Shown: positions 2,409-17,870 of the stretch, one piece after another
Position numbering within the stretch: position 1 is the first letter of the stretch
Layout: each line of letters begins with the position of its first letter
UHGV virus genome: UHGV-0391889
Source: a virus
Length of the DNA stretch: 39,374 nt
Strand: one strand, 5' to 3'
Program-made: the position numbers and the translations under genes
The notes under the pieces: model-generated
The model's database searches: none
The model's input: the letters and a program-made list of their open reading frames with translations, nothing else
What the model was told of the DNA's origin: nothing

Positions 2409-2514
2409 TGCCATACCTCTTACGATATGACCGCCAGTAAATATACAGAATACTGGCGGGTGTGGTTGATTTTTAATAATCAGCTATGAAGTTCTAATTT
2501 GTATATAATGCAAC

Positions 2515-7630: not shown

Positions 7631-7825
7631 ATGGATAATAAAGACAAAGCCTGGCTACTTGCTTTAGCTTTCAGCATCAGATCGCAGCGAGAAACAACTC
7701 ATCAAGAATTTTTCTCGGAAATCGAGAATGCTGAGAATGAGTTTTTGTCATTACTCAATGAACGTGATGCTAAAAAAAGCGCCGATTCACTTAAGGCTTG
7801 GGCGAAACTAGGCTCTTCAAAATAA
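7631..7825 (+). CDS. Hypothetical small protein (64 aa)
   Basis: ORF directly downstream of the extended -10 promoter; no recognisable family; weak RBS. Confidence 0.3.
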   Translation: MDNKDKAWLLALAFSIRSQRETTHQEFFSEIENAENEFLSLLNERDAKKSADSLKAWAKLGSSK

Positions 7826-8009
7826 TTGCTTCTGTAGCGGCATGAACAACTGTTTTTGCCGCCTCTTCAACTTCCTTGTCTGGACGACCAGCCTTTACTT
7901 TTTCTGCAATGACCTCCAGCACAGTTGGAAGAACCTTGCTAATAAGCATGGCTGCCACATCTTTGCTGCACAATTGACCGTTAATAACAACCAGATCTTC
8001 ACCAACCAT
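7791..8009 (-). CDS. Hypothetical protein (72 aa from MVGEDLVV...)
   Basis: Internal ATG with an AAGGGGA RBS 7 nt upstream; lies downstream of the repressor gene; no family assignment. Confidence 0.4.
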   Translation of the reverse strand: MVGEDLVVINGQLCSKDVAAMLISKVLPTVLEVIAEKVKAGRPDKEVEEAAKTVVHAATEAIILKSLVSPKP

Positions 8010-8254
8010 CTTTTTTCCCCTTAACGCCGGGTGGCGGAACGTTTTATCTACTGCGCTTTGTATCAATCAACAACTGCCGTCATGTTCGTATGCCTCAGGC
8101 TGGCTACTTAGCCCTGTTCAGTGGCTGGATAACTCGAGGTATTGTCCAGCCGTTCTCTGGTGGGGCGTTGTTTGGATATGGCAAATGCTCACATATCGTG
8201 AGTGATTTGTCAACTCAATATGTGAGCACTGTTGTTTTTGGATTTTTGATGGAC

Positions 8255-8288
8255 AAAAAAAGCCCTCGCTAATAGCGAGAGCTTTTTG
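8255..8288. terminator. Bidirectional rho-independent terminator
   Basis: Stem AGCCCTCGCT / AGCGAGAGCT with an A-run on one side and a T-run on the other, just downstream of the repressor stop. Confidence 0.5.
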
Positions 8289-8313
8289 ATTGGAATCGAG
8301 GGAGATTAAAGGT

Positions 8314-8703
8314 TTAGGAGGATTTTTTCTGTTGCCTGCTTCTTAGATATTTTTCCACATACTCATCAAGCTCTTGAAGACGGATTTCGAACAGATCAAT
8401 CATGCGTGCTTGTTCTGATCCCGGGAGCTGATTAAACAGCTCTAGCATTTTTTTCTGGTTATCATTTAACCATGAGTACGTGTTTTCCTGTTCACCGAAC
8501 ATTAATTCTGCGGGGGAAATGCCTAGTACTTGGCCGAGGATGATCGCATCCTCAGCCCCCACACTCCTGGTGCCAGCTTCGTAGTTAGCAATACGAGAAG
8601 AACCTGACCAACCACATAGTTTTGCCAGGTTTCCCATACTTAATCCTCGATTTAGGCGAGTGGCTTTTAGGCGCTCGCCTATTTGTTCTGCAATCGTTTT
8701 CAT
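8314..8703 (-). CDS. CI-like phage repressor, HTH XRE family
   Basis: 129 aa from MKTIAEQIGERLK...; HTH segment LSMGNLAKLCGWSGSSRIANYE; divergent from a Cro-like gene; the longer track ORF 8314-8808 would run across the operator region. Confidence 0.8.
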   Translation of the reverse strand: MKTIAEQIGERLKATRLNRGLSMGNLAKLCGWSGSSRIANYEAGTRSVGAEDAIILGQVLGISPAELMFGEQENTYSWLNDNQKKMLELFNQLPGSEQARMIDLFEIRLQELDEYVEKYLRSRQQKKSS

Positions 8704-8797
8704 AGTTCCGATTTTATCACGATGTGTGAAATTGGCGGTACTCACGTATCTGTAGTTGATCTCGCTCACGAAATGTGAATAATAGAGACAGGAGGTA
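8704..8797. promoter_or_regulatory. Divergent immunity-region promoters with three operator-like TCAC-N5-GTGA sites
   Basis: TCACgatgtGTGA at 8717-8729, TCACgtatcTGTA at 8742-8754, TCACgaaatGTGA at 8766-8778, spaced about 24-25 bp, between the repressor and cro-like starts. Confidence 0.55.
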
Positions 8798-9043
8798 ATG
8801 ATGAACAAAATTTCAACATATCGAAAACAGCTTGGGTTGTCTCAAAGACAACTTGCTGTTCAGTTAGGGTGGATACAAAGCCGACTGGCAAATTACGAAG
8901 CAAATTTTCGTACTCCTGGGCTAGAAGAGTGCAGAAAAATTGTTTCCACCCTTAATCGGCTTGGTGCTCATTGTGGACTTGACGATGTATTCCCCCCAGA
9001 CGGTAAGCATAGCGAAAACAGCATAGGAGCGGTTGATTCATGA
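8798..9043 (+). CDS. Cro/YdaS-like HTH regulator
   Basis: 81 aa with HTH (LGLSQRQLAVQLGWIQSRLANYE); GGAGG RBS; divergent from the repressor. Confidence 0.7.
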   Translation: MMNKISTYRKQLGLSQRQLAVQLGWIQSRLANYEANFRTPGLEECRKIVSTLNRLGAHCGLDDVFPPDGKHSENSIGAVDS

Positions 9044-9462
9044 AAATCAGGCATGAGCATATCGAATCAGTGTTGTTGGCCCTGGCAGCCGAAAAAGGGC
9101 AGGCGTGGGTCGCTAACGCAATTACTGAAGAATATCTGCGCCAGGGGGGCGGCGAATTGCCCCTTGTACCAGGCAAGGACTGGAACAATCAGCAGAATAT
9201 CTATCACCGTTGGTTGAAAGGTGAAACGAAAGCGCAAAGGGAAAAAATTCAGAAACTGATCCCTGCGGTTCTGGCAATTCTTCCGCGCGAGCTGCGTCAC
9301 CGACTCTGTATCTTCGATACCCTGGAACGCCGTGCATTACTGGCGGCGCAGGAAGCGTTGAGTACGGCAATTGATGCGCATGATGATGCAGTCCAGGCCG
9401 TTTACCGGAAAGCACATTTCAGCGGTGGTGGGTCGCCCGGCGATTCTGTCGTAGTGCATTGA
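9040..9462 (+). CDS. ydaT: YdaT-like protein (CII-like regulator / reported toxin)
   Basis: 140 aa, near-identical to recalled Rac YdaT (MKI.HEHIESVL.ALAAEKGQAWVANAITEEYLRQGGGELPLVPGKDW...). Confidence 0.8.
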   Translation: MKIRHEHIESVLLALAAEKGQAWVANAITEEYLRQGGGELPLVPGKDWNNQQNIYHRWLKGETKAQREKIQKLIPAVLAILPRELRHRLCIFDTLERRALLAAQEALSTAIDAHDDAVQAVYRKAHFSGGGSPGDSVVVH

Positions 9463-9507
9463 TTGAAATTAATCGTGCCGGATTGTTTTGTTCGGTATCA
9501 GTTAAAT

Positions 9508-9948
9508 GTAACGCTGCGAGCGTTACAAGGTGAAAACAAATGGCTTCAAACTGGATAAAGCTCGAGGTTATTACGCCGGATAAGCCGGAAATATTCAGGC
9601 TTGCTGAGATTCTGAATATTGATCCAGATGCCGCATTAGGGAAGGTTATTCGCTTCTGGGCATGGGCGGATCAACAAATGATAGACGGTAATGCAGATTG
9701 TAACGCTCGCGGCGTTACAAAAAGTGCAATAGATCGCATCACTTTTATGGCTGGTTTTGCTGATGCGTTAATTCAGGTTGGATGGCTGGTCGAAAATGAC
9801 GTTGGGCTTTCTCTACCTAACTTTGAACGCCATAACGGAAAAAGCTCTAAAAAACGGGCGGTTACAAACGAGCGAGTTACAAAAATACGTGAACTGAAAC
9901 GAAAAGGTAACGCTGCCGGCGTTACACAAACGGATCAAAAAGCGTTAC
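9508..9948. repeat. Iteron-like palindromes GTAACGC-N5-GCGTTAC (candidate replication origin)
   Basis: Near-perfect 19-bp palindromes at 9508-9526, 9700-9718 and 9907-9925, plus GTTAC half-sites at 9861, 9876 and 9944; mostly inside the initiator gene, as for lambda ori inside O. Confidence 0.55.
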
Positions 9949-14677: not shown

Positions 14678-14769
14678 AAACGGTTTGCGGGAAAAGGAGA
14701 GTTAAGTAGAATTGCTGCGGGTGCTTGAGGCTATCTGCCTCGGGCATGAACACCAACGGCAGATAGAGA

Positions 14770-14838
14770 AAAGCCCCAGTTAACATTACGCGTCCGGCAA
14801 GACGCTTAACATTAATCTGAGGCCATATCTATGCGACA
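14770..14838 (-). ncRNA. Candidate Sok-like antisense RNA
   Basis: Minus-strand promoter-like TTGACC (14868-14873) and TAATCT (14844-14849) with 18 nt spacing, facing into the hok leader; minus-strand hairpin then T-run near 14770. Positions approximate. Confidence 0.3.
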
Positions 14839-14890
14839 CATAGAGATTAGCCTCTTACGGACCGAAAGGTCAAGGAGAAGCAGGCTATGA
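14831..14890 (+). CDS. Mok-like leader ORF (19 aa)
   Basis: Short ORF whose stop overlaps the hok start (ATGA). Confidence 0.4.
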   Translation: MRHIEISLLRTERSRRSRL

Positions 14891-16201: not shown

Positions 16202-16491
16202 TGGTGGATTTACGTAAAGCGGCGCGGGGGCAGATGTGCACCGTCAGAATTCCTGGCTACTGCAATCACAATCCCGAAACTTCTGTGCTGGCGCATTACA
16301 GGCTGGCGGGGACGTGCGGAACAGCGACAAAACCACACGATATGCAGGCAGCGATTGCCTGTAGCTCATGCCACGATTTAATCGACGGGAGAGTAAAAAC
16401 CAGCGATTACACCAAAGAAGAATTACGCCTGATGCATGCAGAAGGTGTTTTTCGCACACAAGAAATCTGGAGAAAGGAGGGATATTTATGA
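16201..16491 (+). CDS. Small Cys/His-rich nin-region protein (DUF1364-like, putative zinc-binding)
   Basis: 96 aa with a C..C...H...C.C...C..CH pattern; coupled to both neighbours. Confidence 0.55.
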   Translation: MVDLRKAARGQMCTVRIPGYCNHNPETSVLAHYRLAGTCGTATKPHDMQAAIACSSCHDLIDGRVKTSDYTKEELRLMHAEGVFRTQEIWRKEGYL

Positions 16492-17042
16492 TTTACCCAA
16501 CGAATACAGGCAAAAGCGGGGAACACCTTCGTCTCACCACGCTGGAAAGTGTCTGGATTCAGGGAAAACTGCGCATGTGGGGGCGCTGGTCGTATATTGG
16601 CGGCGGTAAGACGGGAAATATGTTTAACCAGTTGCTGGCATCCAAAAAATTGACGAAAACAGCCGTCAATGAAGCCCTGCGCAGGATGAAAAAAGCGGGA
16701 ATAGAGAAACCTGAGCTGGAAGCGTTTTTGCGAGAGATGATCAATGGCAAGCAAAAGACCTGGCTGGCGCATTGTACTGATGCAGAGGCGTTATGTATTG
16801 ATAGAGTCATAAGTGAGGTGCTAGCAGAGCATCCTGGATTGATTAGTGTCCTCCGGCAACGGTATGAAGGGAGGGGGATGACTAAGCGAAAAATGGCTGA
16901 ATTGCTGAATGATTCACACCCTGAGTGGTGTTTTCGGACGTGCTGCAGTCGGGTAGATGTATGGCTAAATCTTGCTGAATATATGCTCTATCTACCGATG
17001 CGTGATGCATTCTCTTCCGGGGATCTAAAAACCGTCTGTTGA
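16488..17042 (+). CDS. Q-like late-gene antiterminator
   Basis: 184 aa from MIYPTNTG with an AGGAGGG RBS; last gene before a strong promoter plus terminator and the lysis cassette. Confidence 0.6.
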   Translation: MIYPTNTGKSGEHLRLTTLESVWIQGKLRMWGRWSYIGGGKTGNMFNQLLASKKLTKTAVNEALRRMKKAGIEKPELEAFLREMINGKQKTWLAHCTDAEALCIDRVISEVLAEHPGLISVLRQRYEGRGMTKRKMAELLNDSHPEWCFRTCCSRVDVWLNLAEYMLYLPMRDAFSSGDLKTVC

Positions 17043-17068
17043 CTCAATCTGTTATCCGGGGCTATATT
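17039..17068 (+). promoter_or_regulatory. pR'-like late promoter
   Basis: TTGACT at 17039-17044, 18-nt spacer, TATATT at 17063-17068; overlaps the Q stop codon. Confidence 0.5.
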
Positions 17069-17128
17069 CCTCACGCGCCAGCAAAATCTGGCGTCGGGAT
17101 TGGAACCCCGGATAGAGACCGCGACAGA

Positions 17129-17152
17129 CACACGCCGCGAGCGTGTTTTTTA
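17129..17152 (+). terminator. tR'-like rho-independent terminator
   Basis: ACACGC-cgcga-GCGTGT followed by TTTTTT, about 60 nt downstream of the candidate late promoter. Confidence 0.6.
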
Positions 17153-17312
17153 TTGTCGTATGCACGCGCACATCTGAATTATGGTGGGGCGCATGGGGGA
17201 GCTGAAAAGCTCGCCGGTCGGTTTCCCGGTAGTTCCAACCCTGTGCGTCTCACCACCCGATGATTGGAACCTGACGGTGGTGATAGTTTAGAAACCACCA
17301 GAGGGCGTCATT

Positions 17313-17870
17313 ATGACAACTCAAATTTCTGTTGAAACTCTCTCCCCGATCACCCATAACCGGATTCCTGTTATTACCACCGAACTTTTGGCGCAGCTTT
17401 ACGGCACTGAGCCGGTGCGTATTCGCCAGAATCATCATGAGAACAAAGTACGCTTCGTTGAAGGGAAACACTTTTTCAAAGTTGTTGGTAATGACCTTAA
17501 AGAATTGCGGGTAGCTTTAAACTACTCACAAAATCCCATCTCTCCCAAAGCCCGCTCCCTTATCCTCTGGACAGAACGCGGAGCAGCCCGCCACGCAAAA
17601 ATGCTCGAAACCGATCAGGCGTGGGATGTGTTCGAAAAACTGGAAGACTGCTATTTCAGTCAAAAGGATCCGTCAACGCCAGTTTCATGCCAGAAAAGTT
17701 ACGACACGCGAGTTCTCTGTTATCAGCGAGGCGGTGTCACTGTTTCCACAATTCAGTTACGGGATGATGATATTGTTATTTCCCTTGAGTCATGGCTGGA
17801 ACTGGCGAGAGCCAATGGTTGGTTTGTTGTTCGCAGAGATAAACTGGTGGAAAGGTTGATGCAGCTTTAA
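17313..17870 (+). CDS. ORF6N-domain protein (antirepressor-like / KilA-N-related)
   Basis: 185 aa; N-terminal region resembles the ORF6N fold as recalled; GAGGG RBS. Confidence 0.55.
   Translation: MTTQISVETLSPITHNRIPVITTELLAQLYGTEPVRIRQNHHENKVRFVEGKHFFKVVGNDLKELRVALNYSQNPISPKARSLILWTERGAARHAKMLETDQAWDVFEKLEDCYFSQKDPSTPVSCQKSYDTRVLCYQRGGVTVSTIQLRDDDIVISLESWLELARANGWFVVRRDKLVERLMQL

What the first reader, a model, noticed from the sequence alone, without database searches (positions are those of the whole stretch)
8704..8797. Immunity switch with three phased operator-like sites
Between the divergent repressor and cro-like genes are three sites of form TCAC-N5-GTGA (the middle one degenerate) at about 24-25 bp spacing, resembling a tripartite operator such as lambda OR1-OR3. 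The immediate neighbours are YdaS- and YdaT-like proteins, which have been reported to be toxic when derepressed.
Basis: partly seen in the sequence, partly recalled or inferred. Interest (0 to 1): 0.4.

Follow-up and report, generated by a model that had tools for sequence, protein, structure and literature searches.

The report
Lambda-style operator set of a prophage switch
The 94-bp gap between a prophage repressor gene and its cro-like neighbour holds three evenly spaced repressor-binding sites laid out almost exactly like phage lambda's OR3-OR2-OR1; it is a correct but ordinary example of a well-known kind of genetic switch.

Summary
TCAC-N5-GTGA occurs perfectly at 8717-8729 (S1) and 8766-8778 (S3). 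A half-degenerate copy lies at 8742-8754 (S2). The spacings are 25 and 24 bp. The only other perfect copy in the 39-kb window, 8189-8201 (OL1), lies just past the repressor gene. Beside it is a second half-degenerate site (OL2, 8213-8225).

In 69 distinct related intergenic regions (IGRs), the same three-site layout recurs wherever the repressor has the SRxxNYE recognition helix. Repressors with a different helix-turn-helix carry different palindromes at the same positions.

Site centres lie 20, 45 and 69 bp from the repressor ATG; lambda's lie at 19, 42 and 66 bp. S3 and S2 cover the -10/spacer and the -35 edge of the cro promoter. S1 covers a conserved extended -10 that ends 7 nt before the repressor ATG, which predicts a leaderless mRNA as for lambda cI.

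- The repressor is a short DicA/Gifsy-type protein without a protease domain, not RacR-like.
- The cro-like protein is unrelated to YdaS.
- Only YdaT (95% identical) is Rac-like.

Verdict: a new member of a known kind, of low-to-moderate interest. No binding has been tested.

The parts
8314..8703 (-). Repressor gene (129 aa). It has an N-terminal XRE/lambda-repressor-like HTH and a C-terminal helical domain of the DicA/Gifsy type. It has no S24 protease domain.
   Evidence: ORF. Pfam gives HTH_31/HTH_3 only. DicA match: 29% identity, E 6e-15. hhalign to lambda CI residues 16-77: 92.7% probability. AlphaFold model pLDDT 88.9: 5-helix HTH, a linker, then helices 81-91 and 95-128. Foldseek hits: SinR, P22 c2, 434 and lambda repressors.
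8715..8731 (.). S1, the OR3 analogue: TATCACGATGTGTGAAA (core 8717-8729). It overlaps the extended -10 of the repressor promoter. Predicted to be the autorepression site and the preferred Cro site.
   Evidence: best matrix hit in the window. Position +13/14 from the ATG is conserved in all related loci. The centre lies 20 bp from the ATG, against 19 bp for lambda OR3.
8711..8719 (-). PRM-like extended -10 (TGATAAAAT on the minus strand). It ends 7 nt before the repressor ATG, which predicts a leaderless mRNA.
   Evidence: Sequence. The key positions (TG, TA...T) are invariant in alignment A6. GTG[AG]TAnnnT followed by 5-8 nt and ATG is found in nearly all distinct intergenic regions. The analogue paaR2 is shown to be leaderless in PMC8630535.
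8740..8756 (.). S2, the OR2 analogue: ACTCACGTATCTGTAGT (core 8742-8754). It has a consensus left half and a degenerate right half that abuts the -35 of the cro promoter. Presumed to be a weak site filled cooperatively.
   Evidence: TCAC is invariant across 7 genera. It lies at a fixed distance from TTGAC in all group-A intergenic regions. It is not detected by the full-site matrix.
8756..8783 (+). PR-like promoter for cro-ydaT: -35 TTGATC (8756-8761), 16-nt spacer, -10 AATAAT (8778-8783).
   Evidence: It is the only sigma-70-like site found in 7700-9600. TTGA and TA are invariant in A6.
8764..8780 (.). S3, the OR1 analogue: GCTCACGAAATGTGAAT (core 8766-8778). It fills the spacer and overlaps the -10 of PR.
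   Evidence: second-best hit. Conserved at +59 to +63 from the repressor ATG in all related loci.
8798..9043 (+). Cro-like repressor gene (80-81 aa). The likely true start is the ATG at 8801, 5 nt after AGGAGG at 8790-8795. Its helix GWIQSRLANYE closely matches that of the repressor.
   Evidence: Orthologues start with MNKIS or MNLIS. No similarity to YdaS or DicC. PDB 28tn_A 'lambda repressor-like protein', E 8e-15.
9033..9050 (.). YdaT box TTGATTCATGAAAATCAG, which spans the cro stop codon and the ydaT start codon. This is the expected binding site of the CII analogue YdaT.
   Evidence: One mismatch to TTGATT-N6-AATCAA. Only 2 such hits occur in the window against 0.17 expected. The same position is footprinted in CP-933P (PMC9986795) and in Rac (ATGATTCATGAAAATCAA; PMC11879457).
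9040..9462 (+). ydaT (140 aa), the CII analogue.
   Evidence: Pfam YdaT_toxin, E 5e-11. 95% identical to K-12 Rac YdaT.
8187..8203 (.). OL1: GCTCACATATCGTGAGT (core 8189-8201). It lies between the -35 and -10 of the leftward promoter.
   Evidence: Third perfect pattern match and third-best matrix hit. A class-matched full site lies about 100-115 nt past the repressor stop codon in most related loci.
8211..8227 (.). OL2: CAACTCAATATGTGAGC (core 8213-8225, ACTC-N5-GTGA). It is half-degenerate, overlaps the PL -35, and its centre is 24 bp from OL1.
   Evidence: Sequence. The geometry mirrors S2/S3. The same arrangement is seen in Salmonella, Citrobacter and Enterobacter loci.
8185..8213 (-). PL-like promoter for the leftward early operon: -35 TTGACA (reverse complement of 8208-8213), 17-nt spacer, -10 GAGCAT (reverse complement of 8185-8190) preceded by TGn.
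   Evidence: Read by eye; it was not returned by the consensus scan. TTGAC followed by a full site is conserved in related loci. The homology break with the alternative immunity cassette falls just left of it.
8254..8290 (.). Bidirectional intrinsic terminator (A-run, GC stem, T-run) that ends the repressor transcript before OL/PL.
   Evidence: Terminator scan: stem 8265-8279 followed by a T-run. The A7 run at 8254-8260 is visible. Conserved in L002 and L003.

Best explanation
The window carries the immunity switch of a Rac-like lambdoid E. coli prophage. The switch has five 17-bp operators of the type nnTCAC-N5-GTGAnn.

Proposed mechanism:
- The short, non-cleavable repressor (8314-8703) binds as a dimer to the strong sites S3 and OL1.
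- Through its C-terminal helical domain it then helps fill the weak neighbours S2 and OL2, 24 bp away. This shuts the rightward cro-ydaT-replication promoter (PR) and the leftward early promoter (PL).
- S1 overlaps the extended -10 of the repressor's own promoter. That promoter probably makes a leaderless mRNA. S1 would give autorepression at high repressor levels.
- S1 would also be the preferred target of the Cro-like protein, whose recognition helix is nearly the same as the repressor's. Cro would thus turn the repressor gene off first, as in lambda.
- YdaT (the CII analogue) binds its box at the cro/ydaT junction and would favour the repressor state.
- The repressor has no protease domain, so induction should need an antirepressor.

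Status of each step:
- Shown directly: site sequences, positions, conservation, and covariation with the HTH type.
- Inferred: binding itself, cooperativity, the order of occupancy, the leaderless start, and the induction route.
For: (1) Specific clustering. The only 3 perfect sites in 39 kb flank the repressor gene. An independently trained matrix returns exactly these three as the top hits, with a clear gap to the next.

(2) Phylogenetic footprint. In 8 intergenic regions from 7 genera with 57-84% identical repressors, the invariant columns are the S1 and S3 CAC/GTG cores, the S2 TCAC, the -35 TTGA, and the -10 elements.

(3) Family-wide pattern. Every one of the roughly 60 distinct intergenic regions whose repressor has the GW..SRxxNYE helix (bar the rearranged locus L010) has full sites at +13/14 and +59-63 from the ATG, 46-49 bp apart. 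Full sites are about 40 times denser in the intergenic and OL zones than elsewhere: 6.1 against 0.15 per kb.

(4) Three-way covariation. Repressors with the same C-terminal domain but a QAVNGWF-type HTH have no CAC-N5-GTG sites. They carry GTAAAC-N6-GTTTAC palindromes and pair with YdaS/DicC-like Cro proteins. Within the family, Gln-type helices go with A at half-site position 2 (24/24). Ser/Ala-type helices go with T at position 3 (95/100).

(5) Shared recognition helix between repressor and Cro: GWSGSSRIANYEAG against GWIQSRLANYEAN.

(6) Geometry. Site centres at 20/45/69 bp from the ATG compare with 19/42/66 bp in lambda. S2 abuts the -35, S3 overlaps the -10, and S1 overlaps the extended -10.

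(7) The HTH domain is homologous to lambda CI (hhalign 92.7%). It is 58% identical to the S24-type CI of phages mEpX1 and VT1-Sakai, whose intergenic region has the same layout.

(8) Experimentally studied analogues behave this way: CP-933P PaaR2/YdaS (PMC8630535), Rac (PMC9638921) and DicA with the antirepressor Rem (PMC10448788).
Against: - No binding, transcription-start or reporter data exist for this immunity type. A search for the exact site sequences in the paper library found nothing.
- S2 and OL2 are only half-sites and fail the full-site matrix. Cooperativity is inferred from geometry and analogy.
- The repressor promoter has no recognisable -35, and the consensus scan did not report it or PL.
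- The predicted PR start leaves only about 10-12 nt of leader before the cro ATG.
- The identical Cro protein occurs beside a different repressor and operator set. Cro specificity may therefore differ from what a simple 'same sites' model assumes.
- Whether bound repressor at S2 activates its own promoter cannot be judged. The acidic patch that lambda CI uses is not evident in helix 2 (read from the sequence; the role of the patch is recalled knowledge).
Confidence: 0.85

Rival explanations
1. The switch is bipartite. Only S1 and S3 (plus OL1) are true operators. The conserved TCAC(G/A)T at S2 and OL2 is a promoter-context element, or a monomer contact, and is not a third operator filled cooperatively.
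For: S2 and OL2 are not found by the full-site matrix. One-mismatch matches to the pattern are at chance level. The right half of S2 varies widely between loci: GTAG, GTAT, GTTA, GAGG, CGTC.
Against: The TCAC half-site is invariant across 7 genera, while flanking spacer bases are free to vary. It keeps a fixed register to S3 and to the -35. The same strong-plus-weak pair, 24 bp apart, is duplicated at OL. The half-site changes class with the repressor: AACG or ACAC in Gln-type loci. Lambda OR2 is likewise the weak, -35-overlapping middle site.
Confidence: 0.1
2. The sites are bound by the repressor only. The Cro-like protein acts at other DNA, or only at S1, so the region is not a true two-protein bistable switch.
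For: The same Cro protein accompanies two different repressor and operator sets, and only S1 stays TATCACGA...GTGA in both. A at half-site position 2 is confined to S1 in Ser/Ala-type loci. In Rac, YdaS was reported not to repress racR (PMC9638921).
Against: The Cro and repressor recognition helices are nearly identical. All partner Cro proteins in the family keep GW.Q[SP]R[IL][AS]NYE, and Cro type switches together with repressor HTH type. In CP-933P the Cro analogue footprints both promoters (PMC8630535).
Confidence: 0.04
3. The palindromes are chance features, or sites for another factor such as YdaT or a host regulator.
For: In Rac, YdaT also binds inside the racR-ydaS intergenic region (PMC11879457).
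Against: The clustering and matrix statistics argue against chance. YdaT is 95% identical to Rac YdaT, although the intergenic regions are unrelated. The sites covary with the repressor and Cro HTH type, not with YdaT. The known YdaT motif is different and lies at 9033-9050.
Confidence: 0.01

Closest known systems
Phage lambda OR (OR3-OR2-OR1) with PRM/PR, plus OL/PL
   Same: - Divergent repressor and cro genes, about 100 bp apart (94 bp here, 100 bp in lambda).
- Three 17-bp sites of the same form ([T/A][A/C]CAC-N5-GTG), with centres 20/45/69 bp from the repressor ATG against 19/42/66 bp in lambda.
- The middle site abuts the PR -35, the promoter-proximal site overlaps the PR -10, and the repressor-proximal site overlaps a TGnTAnnnT -10 just before the ATG.
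- Matching operators sit at a leftward promoter beyond the repressor gene.
- The HTH domain is homologous.
   Different: - The repressor is 129 aa, and a DicA-like helical C-terminal domain replaces the S24 autoprotease.
- Cro is an all-helical XRE protein paralogous to the repressor HTH, not the lambda Cro fold.
- The CII role is taken by YdaT.
- Only two OL sites are present here.
- The operator inner positions differ, so heteroimmunity with lambda is expected (inference).
CP-933P PaaR2-YdaS-YdaT switch of E. coli O157:H7 (PMC8630535, PMC9986795)
   Same: - A short non-cleavable repressor, a roughly 97-bp intergenic region with multiple phased operators overlapping divergent promoters, and a leaderless repressor mRNA (shown there, predicted here).
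- PL with OL sites.
- YdaT binding TTGATT-N6-AATCAA at the cro/ydaT junction.
   Different: - The operator sequence differs: half-site GTTTAGTAA there, TCAC-N5-GTGA here.
- Cro there is YdaS-like, here it is HTH_3.
- No paaA2-parE2 toxin-antitoxin genes lie behind the repressor here; a terminator follows it.
- Homology of PaaR2 to this repressor was not tested.
Rac prophage racR-ydaS-ydaT (E. coli K-12)
   Same: - Same prophage backbone: YdaT 95% identical, the YdaU C-terminal part 64% identical, and the RalA, recE and kilR context.
- Three operators lie between divergent repressor and cro-like genes.
- The YdaT box sits at the ydaT start.
   Different: - RacR and YdaS show no detectable similarity to the repressor and Cro here.
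- RacR operators are (T/A)TAGGC-n3-GCCTA(T/A).
- The immunity cassette has been swapped.
Qin DicA-DicC and Salmonella Gifsy GfoR/GfhR/GtgR short repressors (PMC10448788, PMC3121763)
   Same: - Repressor class: about 130 aa, an N-terminal HTH, a helical C-terminal part, and no Ala-Gly/S24 cleavage module.
- DicA aligns over its full length (29% identity, E 6e-15).
- This class is induced by antirepressors such as Rem and GfoA.
   Different: - DicC is unrelated to this Cro.
- The Qin intergenic region has different repeats.
- No antirepressor has been identified here. The only candidate is an ORF6N-domain gene behind an isrK/C4 RNA.
S24-type CI of phages mEpX1 and VT1-Sakai (Stx1)
   Same: - The N-terminal 74 residues are 58% identical, including the recognition helix (GWAAPSRLGNYE).
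- Cro carries GWGQSRIANYE.
- The intergenic region has the same S1/S2/S3 layout: TAACACGCAACGTGATT, ACACGAATTGAGG+TTGAC, AATCACAAATTGTGTGT.
   Different: - The C-terminal domain is a LexA-like S24 protease (RecA-inducible).
- CII is HK97/lambda-like rather than YdaT.
- The outer bases of the half-sites differ.

Membership tests
Lambdoid tripartite right operator (lambda OR type) | Divergent repressor and cro genes separated by about 100 bp | tested here: met
   The intergenic region is 94 bp, between the ATG at 8703 (minus strand) and the ATG at 8798 (plus strand).
Lambdoid tripartite right operator (lambda OR type) | Three roughly 17-bp partially symmetric sites spaced about 23-25 bp centre to centre | tested here: met
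   S1, S2 and S3 have centres at 8723, 8748 and 8772. Two are perfect and one is half-degenerate. The layout is conserved in all family members examined.
Lambdoid tripartite right operator (lambda OR type) | Sites overlap two divergent promoters (PR and PRM) | tested here: inconclusive
   PR matches the consensus. An extended -10 for the repressor is conserved. No transcription starts have been mapped, and the repressor promoter lacks a -35.
Lambdoid tripartite right operator (lambda OR type) | Repressor and Cro bind the same sites with opposite order of preference; repressor binds cooperatively | not testable with these tools
   Only indirect support is available: near-identical recognition helices, A at position 2 confined to S1, and strong/weak site pairs.
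Lambdoid tripartite right operator (lambda OR type) | Related operators at a leftward early promoter (OL/PL) | tested here: met
   OL1 at 8189-8201 is perfect. OL2 at 8213-8225 is half-degenerate. They flank a TTGACA -35.
Lambda CI / LexA-like cleavable repressors | C-terminal Peptidase_S24 domain with a cleavage site | tested here: not met
   Pfam finds HTH families only. The model shows a helical C-terminal part. Relatives with S24 are separate 214-aa proteins.
Rac racR-ydaS-ydaT module | RacR-homologous repressor | tested here: not met
   BLASTP against K-12 RacR gives no hit.
Rac racR-ydaS-ydaT module | YdaS-homologous Cro analogue | tested here: not met
   BLASTP against K-12 YdaS gives no hit. 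Pfam gives HTH_3 and no YdaS family.
Rac racR-ydaS-ydaT module | YdaT homologue with a YdaT box at its start codon | tested here: met
   95% identity. The box lies at 9033-9050 and matches the footprinted Rac box.
Rac racR-ydaS-ydaT module | RacR operators (T/A)TAGGC-n3-GCCTA(T/A) | tested here: not met
   The stretch 8704-8797 contains no TAGGC or GCCTA. The Rac intergenic region is shown for comparison.
DicA / Gifsy-type short non-cleavable prophage repressors | About 130-150 aa, N-terminal HTH, no cleavage module, sequence similarity to DicA | tested here: met
   129 aa. DicA match of 29% identity over residues 1-125, E 6e-15. The class is described in PMC10448788 and PMC3121763.
DicA / Gifsy-type short non-cleavable prophage repressors | Inactivated by a dedicated antirepressor | tested here: inconclusive
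   Only a candidate exists: an ORF6N-domain ORF at 17313-17870, directly after isrK/C4-like RNAs. No Rem or GfoA homologue was searched for.
CP-933P PaaR2-YdaS-YdaT switch | Operators with half-site GTTTAGTAA, and a paaA2-parE2 operon behind the repressor | tested here: not met
   The operators here are TCAC-N5-GTGA. The repressor gene is followed by a terminator and OL.

The most novel reading that the evidence does not exclude
Repressor and Cro may tell the operators apart through a simple two-position code. A Gln at the start of the recognition helix (Cro, and the Gln-type repressors) reads A at half-site position 2. The Ser/Ala-type repressor of this window instead reads T at position 3.

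In Ser/Ala-type loci, A at position 2 is kept only in S1. One Cro would therefore always hit the repressor promoter first. The same Cro could also serve, and perhaps cross-flip, at least two repressor immunity types that coexist in E. coli. If so, heteroimmune prophages would be linked through a shared Cro.
Probability: 0.3. Interest if true: 0.45.

Novelty: new member of a known kind. Interest (0 to 1): 0.25.

Why it matters
The result gives a precise, testable operator map for an uncharacterised immunity type of Rac-like prophages. The map has five sites, three promoters and a YdaT box. About 10 of 5,426 complete E. coli genomes carry this exact cassette, and close relatives occur in Salmonella and in IMG/VR viral contigs.

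It shows that the lambda OR scaffold is reused almost base for base with a non-cleavable DicA/Gifsy-type repressor.

The family offers a natural series of recognition-helix and operator variants for studying how immunity specificity evolves. It does not change what is known about how such switches work.

Tried and rejected
Rejected as the model.
- **Pattern with one mismatch:** at chance level, so degenerate copies cannot be called from sequence alone.
- **Consensus promoter scan:** found only PR. The repressor promoter and PL had to be argued from conservation.
- **Rfam** at gathering and E-value thresholds over the region: nothing relevant to the switch.
- **PDB sequence search with the repressor:** only distant XRE regulators.
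- **Literature search for the exact operator sequences:** no paper.
- **Consensus RNA fold of the PL leader** on a mixed alignment: only two short hairpins and little covariation. Left unresolved.
It was redone with alignment A7.
- **Considered and rejected:** LexA box, YdaT binding at S1-S3, and chance palindromes. See the rival explanations.

Full report
**1. What is in the sequence**

The window is an E. coli Rac-like lambdoid prophage.
- It matches E. coli chromosomes at 98-99% identity.
- It carries an integrase and an excisionase, the RalA sRNA, a DnaC-like gene and a YdaT gene.

At the finding:
- A 129-aa helix-turn-helix (HTH) repressor is encoded on the minus strand (8314-8703).
- An 80/81-aa HTH_3 protein is encoded on the plus strand (8798 or 8801 to 9043).
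- ydaT follows at 9040-9462.
- The stated coordinates, 8704-8797, are exactly the intergenic region (IGR).

The three sites are as described.

| Site | Sequence | Coordinates | Match |
|---|---|---|---|
| S1 | TCACGATGTGTGA | 8717-8729 | perfect |
| S2 | TCACGTATCTGTA | 8742-8754 | left half perfect, right half degenerate |
| S3 | TCACGAAATGTGA | 8766-8778 | perfect |

The spacings are 25 and 24 bp.

**2. Is it more than chance?**

- The perfect pattern occurs three times in 39 kb, against 0.59 expected.
- The third copy, at 8189-8201, lies just downstream of the repressor gene. All three perfect copies therefore bracket that gene.
- I trained a weight matrix only on the S1 and S3 sites of Salmonella, Serratia, Citrobacter, Enterobacter and Kosakonia loci.
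  - Its three best hits in the whole window are S1, S3 and 8187-8203, scoring 19.5, 17.9 and 15.8 bits.
  - The next hit scores 11.0, and the mean maximum in shuffled sequence is 13.2.
- S2 is not significant as a full palindrome. Its support is comparative, as described next.

**3. Comparative evidence**

The repressor family was collected from three sources: protein databases, genome contigs, named assemblies and viral contigs. This gave 103 loci and 69 distinct IGRs.

- Every IGR whose repressor has a GW..SRxxNYE recognition helix (bar the rearranged locus L010) has one full CAC-N5-GTG site 13-14 nt from the repressor ATG. A second lies 46-49 bp further on.
- Between the two sites, TCAC(G/A)T always sits 12-14 nt before a TTGAC -35 in the group-A (Ser/Ala-type) IGRs.
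- In an alignment of eight IGRs from seven genera, the invariant columns are exactly these elements plus the two -10 regions.
- A class-matched full site lies about 100-115 nt past the repressor stop codon in most loci.
- Full sites are about 40 times denser in these zones than in the rest of the loci.

There is also three-way covariation.
- Some repressors share the C-terminal domain but have a different HTH (QAVNGWF type). They have no such sites.
- They carry GTAAAC-N6-GTTTAC palindromes instead, and pair with YdaS/DicC-like Cro proteins.
- Operators, repressor HTH and Cro therefore change together. This is the best available argument that the sites are what these two proteins bind.

**4. 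Anatomy and likely mechanism**

*Rightward promoter (PR).*
- It is TTGATC (8756-8761), a 16-nt spacer, then AATAAT (8778-8783).
- S3 fills the spacer and touches the -10. S2 abuts the -35.

*Repressor promoter.*
- On the other strand, TGATAAAAT (reverse complement of 8711-8719) is a conserved extended -10. It ends 7 nt before the repressor ATG.
- The pattern GTG[AG]TAnnnT followed by 5-8 nt and ATG is found in nearly all IGRs.
- This predicts a leaderless mRNA, as shown experimentally for paaR2 and known for lambda cI (PMC8630535).
- S1 overlaps this -10.

*Leftward promoter (PL), read by eye.*
- It is TTGACA (reverse complement of 8208-8213), a 17-nt spacer, then TGnGAGCAT.
- OL1 lies in the spacer and -10. 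A half-degenerate OL2 (8213-8225) lies on the -35. Their centres are 24 bp apart, repeating the S2/S3 pair.

*Comparison with lambda.*
- Site centres are 20, 45 and 69 bp from the repressor ATG. In lambda, OR3, OR2 and OR1 are at 19, 42 and 66 bp.
- The lambda sites have the same CAC-N5-GTG form and the same promoter overlaps.
- The repressor HTH aligns to lambda CI residues 16-77 (hhalign 92.7%, E 4e-7).

*Protein model.*
- The model (pLDDT 88.9) has a five-helix HTH domain that superposes on P22 c2, 434 and lambda repressors.
- After a linker come two helices, an arrangement that recalls SinR.

*Proposed working.*
- Dimers bind the strong sites S3 and OL1.
- They recruit further dimers to the weak sites S2 and OL2 through the C-terminal domain, which represses PR and PL.
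- S1 provides autorepression and is the Cro entry point.
- YdaT acts at its box, TTGATTCATGAAAATCAG (9033-9050). This is the same position as the footprinted boxes of CP-933P and Rac.

Binding, cooperativity, looping and order of occupancy are all inferences.

**5. A specificity pattern**

- The Cro helix (GWIQSRLANYE) and the Gln-type repressors place Gln-Ser where lambda CI has Gln44-Ser45. The contact of Gln44 with the adenine at operator position 2 is recalled knowledge.
- Gln-type repressors have A at half-site position 2 in 24 of 24 half-sites.
- Ser/Ala-type repressors such as this one have T at position 3 in 95 of 100 half-sites. Among their sites, A at position 2 occurs almost only in S1: 12/22 half-sites there, against 0/32 in S3 and 1/46 in OL.
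- The repressor-proximal half of S1 is TATCAC in 11 of 11 distinct IGRs.
- This fits a Cro that prefers S1.
- It would also explain why the identical Cro protein sits next to two different repressor and operator cassettes in E. coli. Homology between the two cassettes breaks at about 8181 and 8786, and only S1 stays TATCACGA...GTGA in both. This idea is untested.

**6. Comparison with known systems**

- The architecture is that of lambda OR/OL.
- The repressor belongs to the short, non-cleavable DicA/Gifsy class.
  - It has no S24 domain.
  - It is 29% identical to DicA.
  - Members of this class are inactivated by antirepressors (PMC10448788, PMC3121763).
- Its HTH domain also occurs fused to an S24 protease in Proteus prophages (61-63% identity).
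- In phages mEpX1 and VT1-Sakai the HTH is 58% identical, and the mEpX1 IGR, the one examined, has the same layout.
- The region is not a member of the Rac racR-ydaS module (no homology of repressor, Cro or operators) nor of the CP-933P PaaR2 operator type. Only YdaT and its box are shared.
- The cassette itself is rare: 10 of 5,426 complete E. coli genomes carry it.

**7. Verdict**

- The operator interpretation is well supported by statistics, conservation and covariation, but it is untested experimentally.
- The 'YdaS-like' and Rac framing is incorrect.
- This is a new member of a well-known kind of system, so the interest is low to moderate.

Noticed in passing
window 2466-2483 (also L114 704-721 in K-12 Rac): There is a second YdaT-box-like inverted repeat, TTGATTTTTAATAATCAG. 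It lies between the excisionase gene (start at 2414, minus strand) and the RalA sRNA (2519-2697). It abuts the -35 position of a TATAAT promoter at 2504-2509. The box is conserved as TTGATTATTAATAATCAG in K-12 Rac between xisR and ralA. It could be a CII-like (YdaT) control point for xis/int or for RalA. A term search of the 2025 NAR YdaT paper found no mention of it.
   Followed up: partly
window 8003-8180, minus strand (PL leader); same block in L004-L017, L025-L031 and many viral contigs: A roughly 150-nt leader lies between the PL-like promoter and the first leftward ORF. It contains a sequence block conserved across all immunity types, including those with unrelated repressor HTH domains: AGTAGC..GCC.G.GGCATACGAA ... 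CGCAG[CT]AG ... ACGTTCCGCC-loop-GGCG. The terminal hairpin shows compensatory changes (CGTC/GACG in L016 and L107). There is no Rfam match. It may be a nut- or put-like antitermination element.
   Followed up: partly
window 8798-9043, compared with L001 2223-2468 and L003 2199-2444: The identical Cro protein (WP_373384158.1) is annotated next to two different repressor and operator cassettes in E. coli genomes. The recombination joints lie just left of OL (about 8181) and between the PR -10 and the cro Shine-Dalgarno sequence (about 8786).
   Followed up: partly
window 17062-17260 and 17313-17870: isrK and C4-antisense-like RNAs (Rfam RF01394, RF01695, RF03163) lie directly after a Q-like antiterminator gene (16368-17042). 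They are followed by an ORF6N-domain protein (185 aa). This arrangement resembles C4-controlled antirepressor modules, so the ORF is a candidate antirepressor for the non-cleavable repressor.
   Followed up: partly
window 8314-8703 (repressor), compared with P0045-P0116 and L113: The repressor's DNA-binding domain is 58-63% identical to the N-terminal domain of 214-aa LexA/S24-type CI repressors of Proteus prophages and of phages mEpX1 and VT1-Sakai. One HTH-and-operator module has therefore been joined to two different C-terminal domains, one SOS-cleavable and one not.
   Followed up: partly
window 14719-14889: There is an Rfam sok antitoxin RNA hit (101 bits), which suggests a hok/sok-type toxin-antitoxin locus inside the prophage.
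   Followed up: no
L002 (PP818812.1, 'Actinobacillus phage vB_Apl-pPE4'): A phage record attributed to Actinobacillus pleuropneumoniae carries this immunity region at 96% identity, with a 100% identical repressor. Its neighbours are typical of E. coli Rac-like prophages (exodeoxyribonuclease VIII, Kil, YdaT). The host assignment looks doubtful.
   Followed up: no
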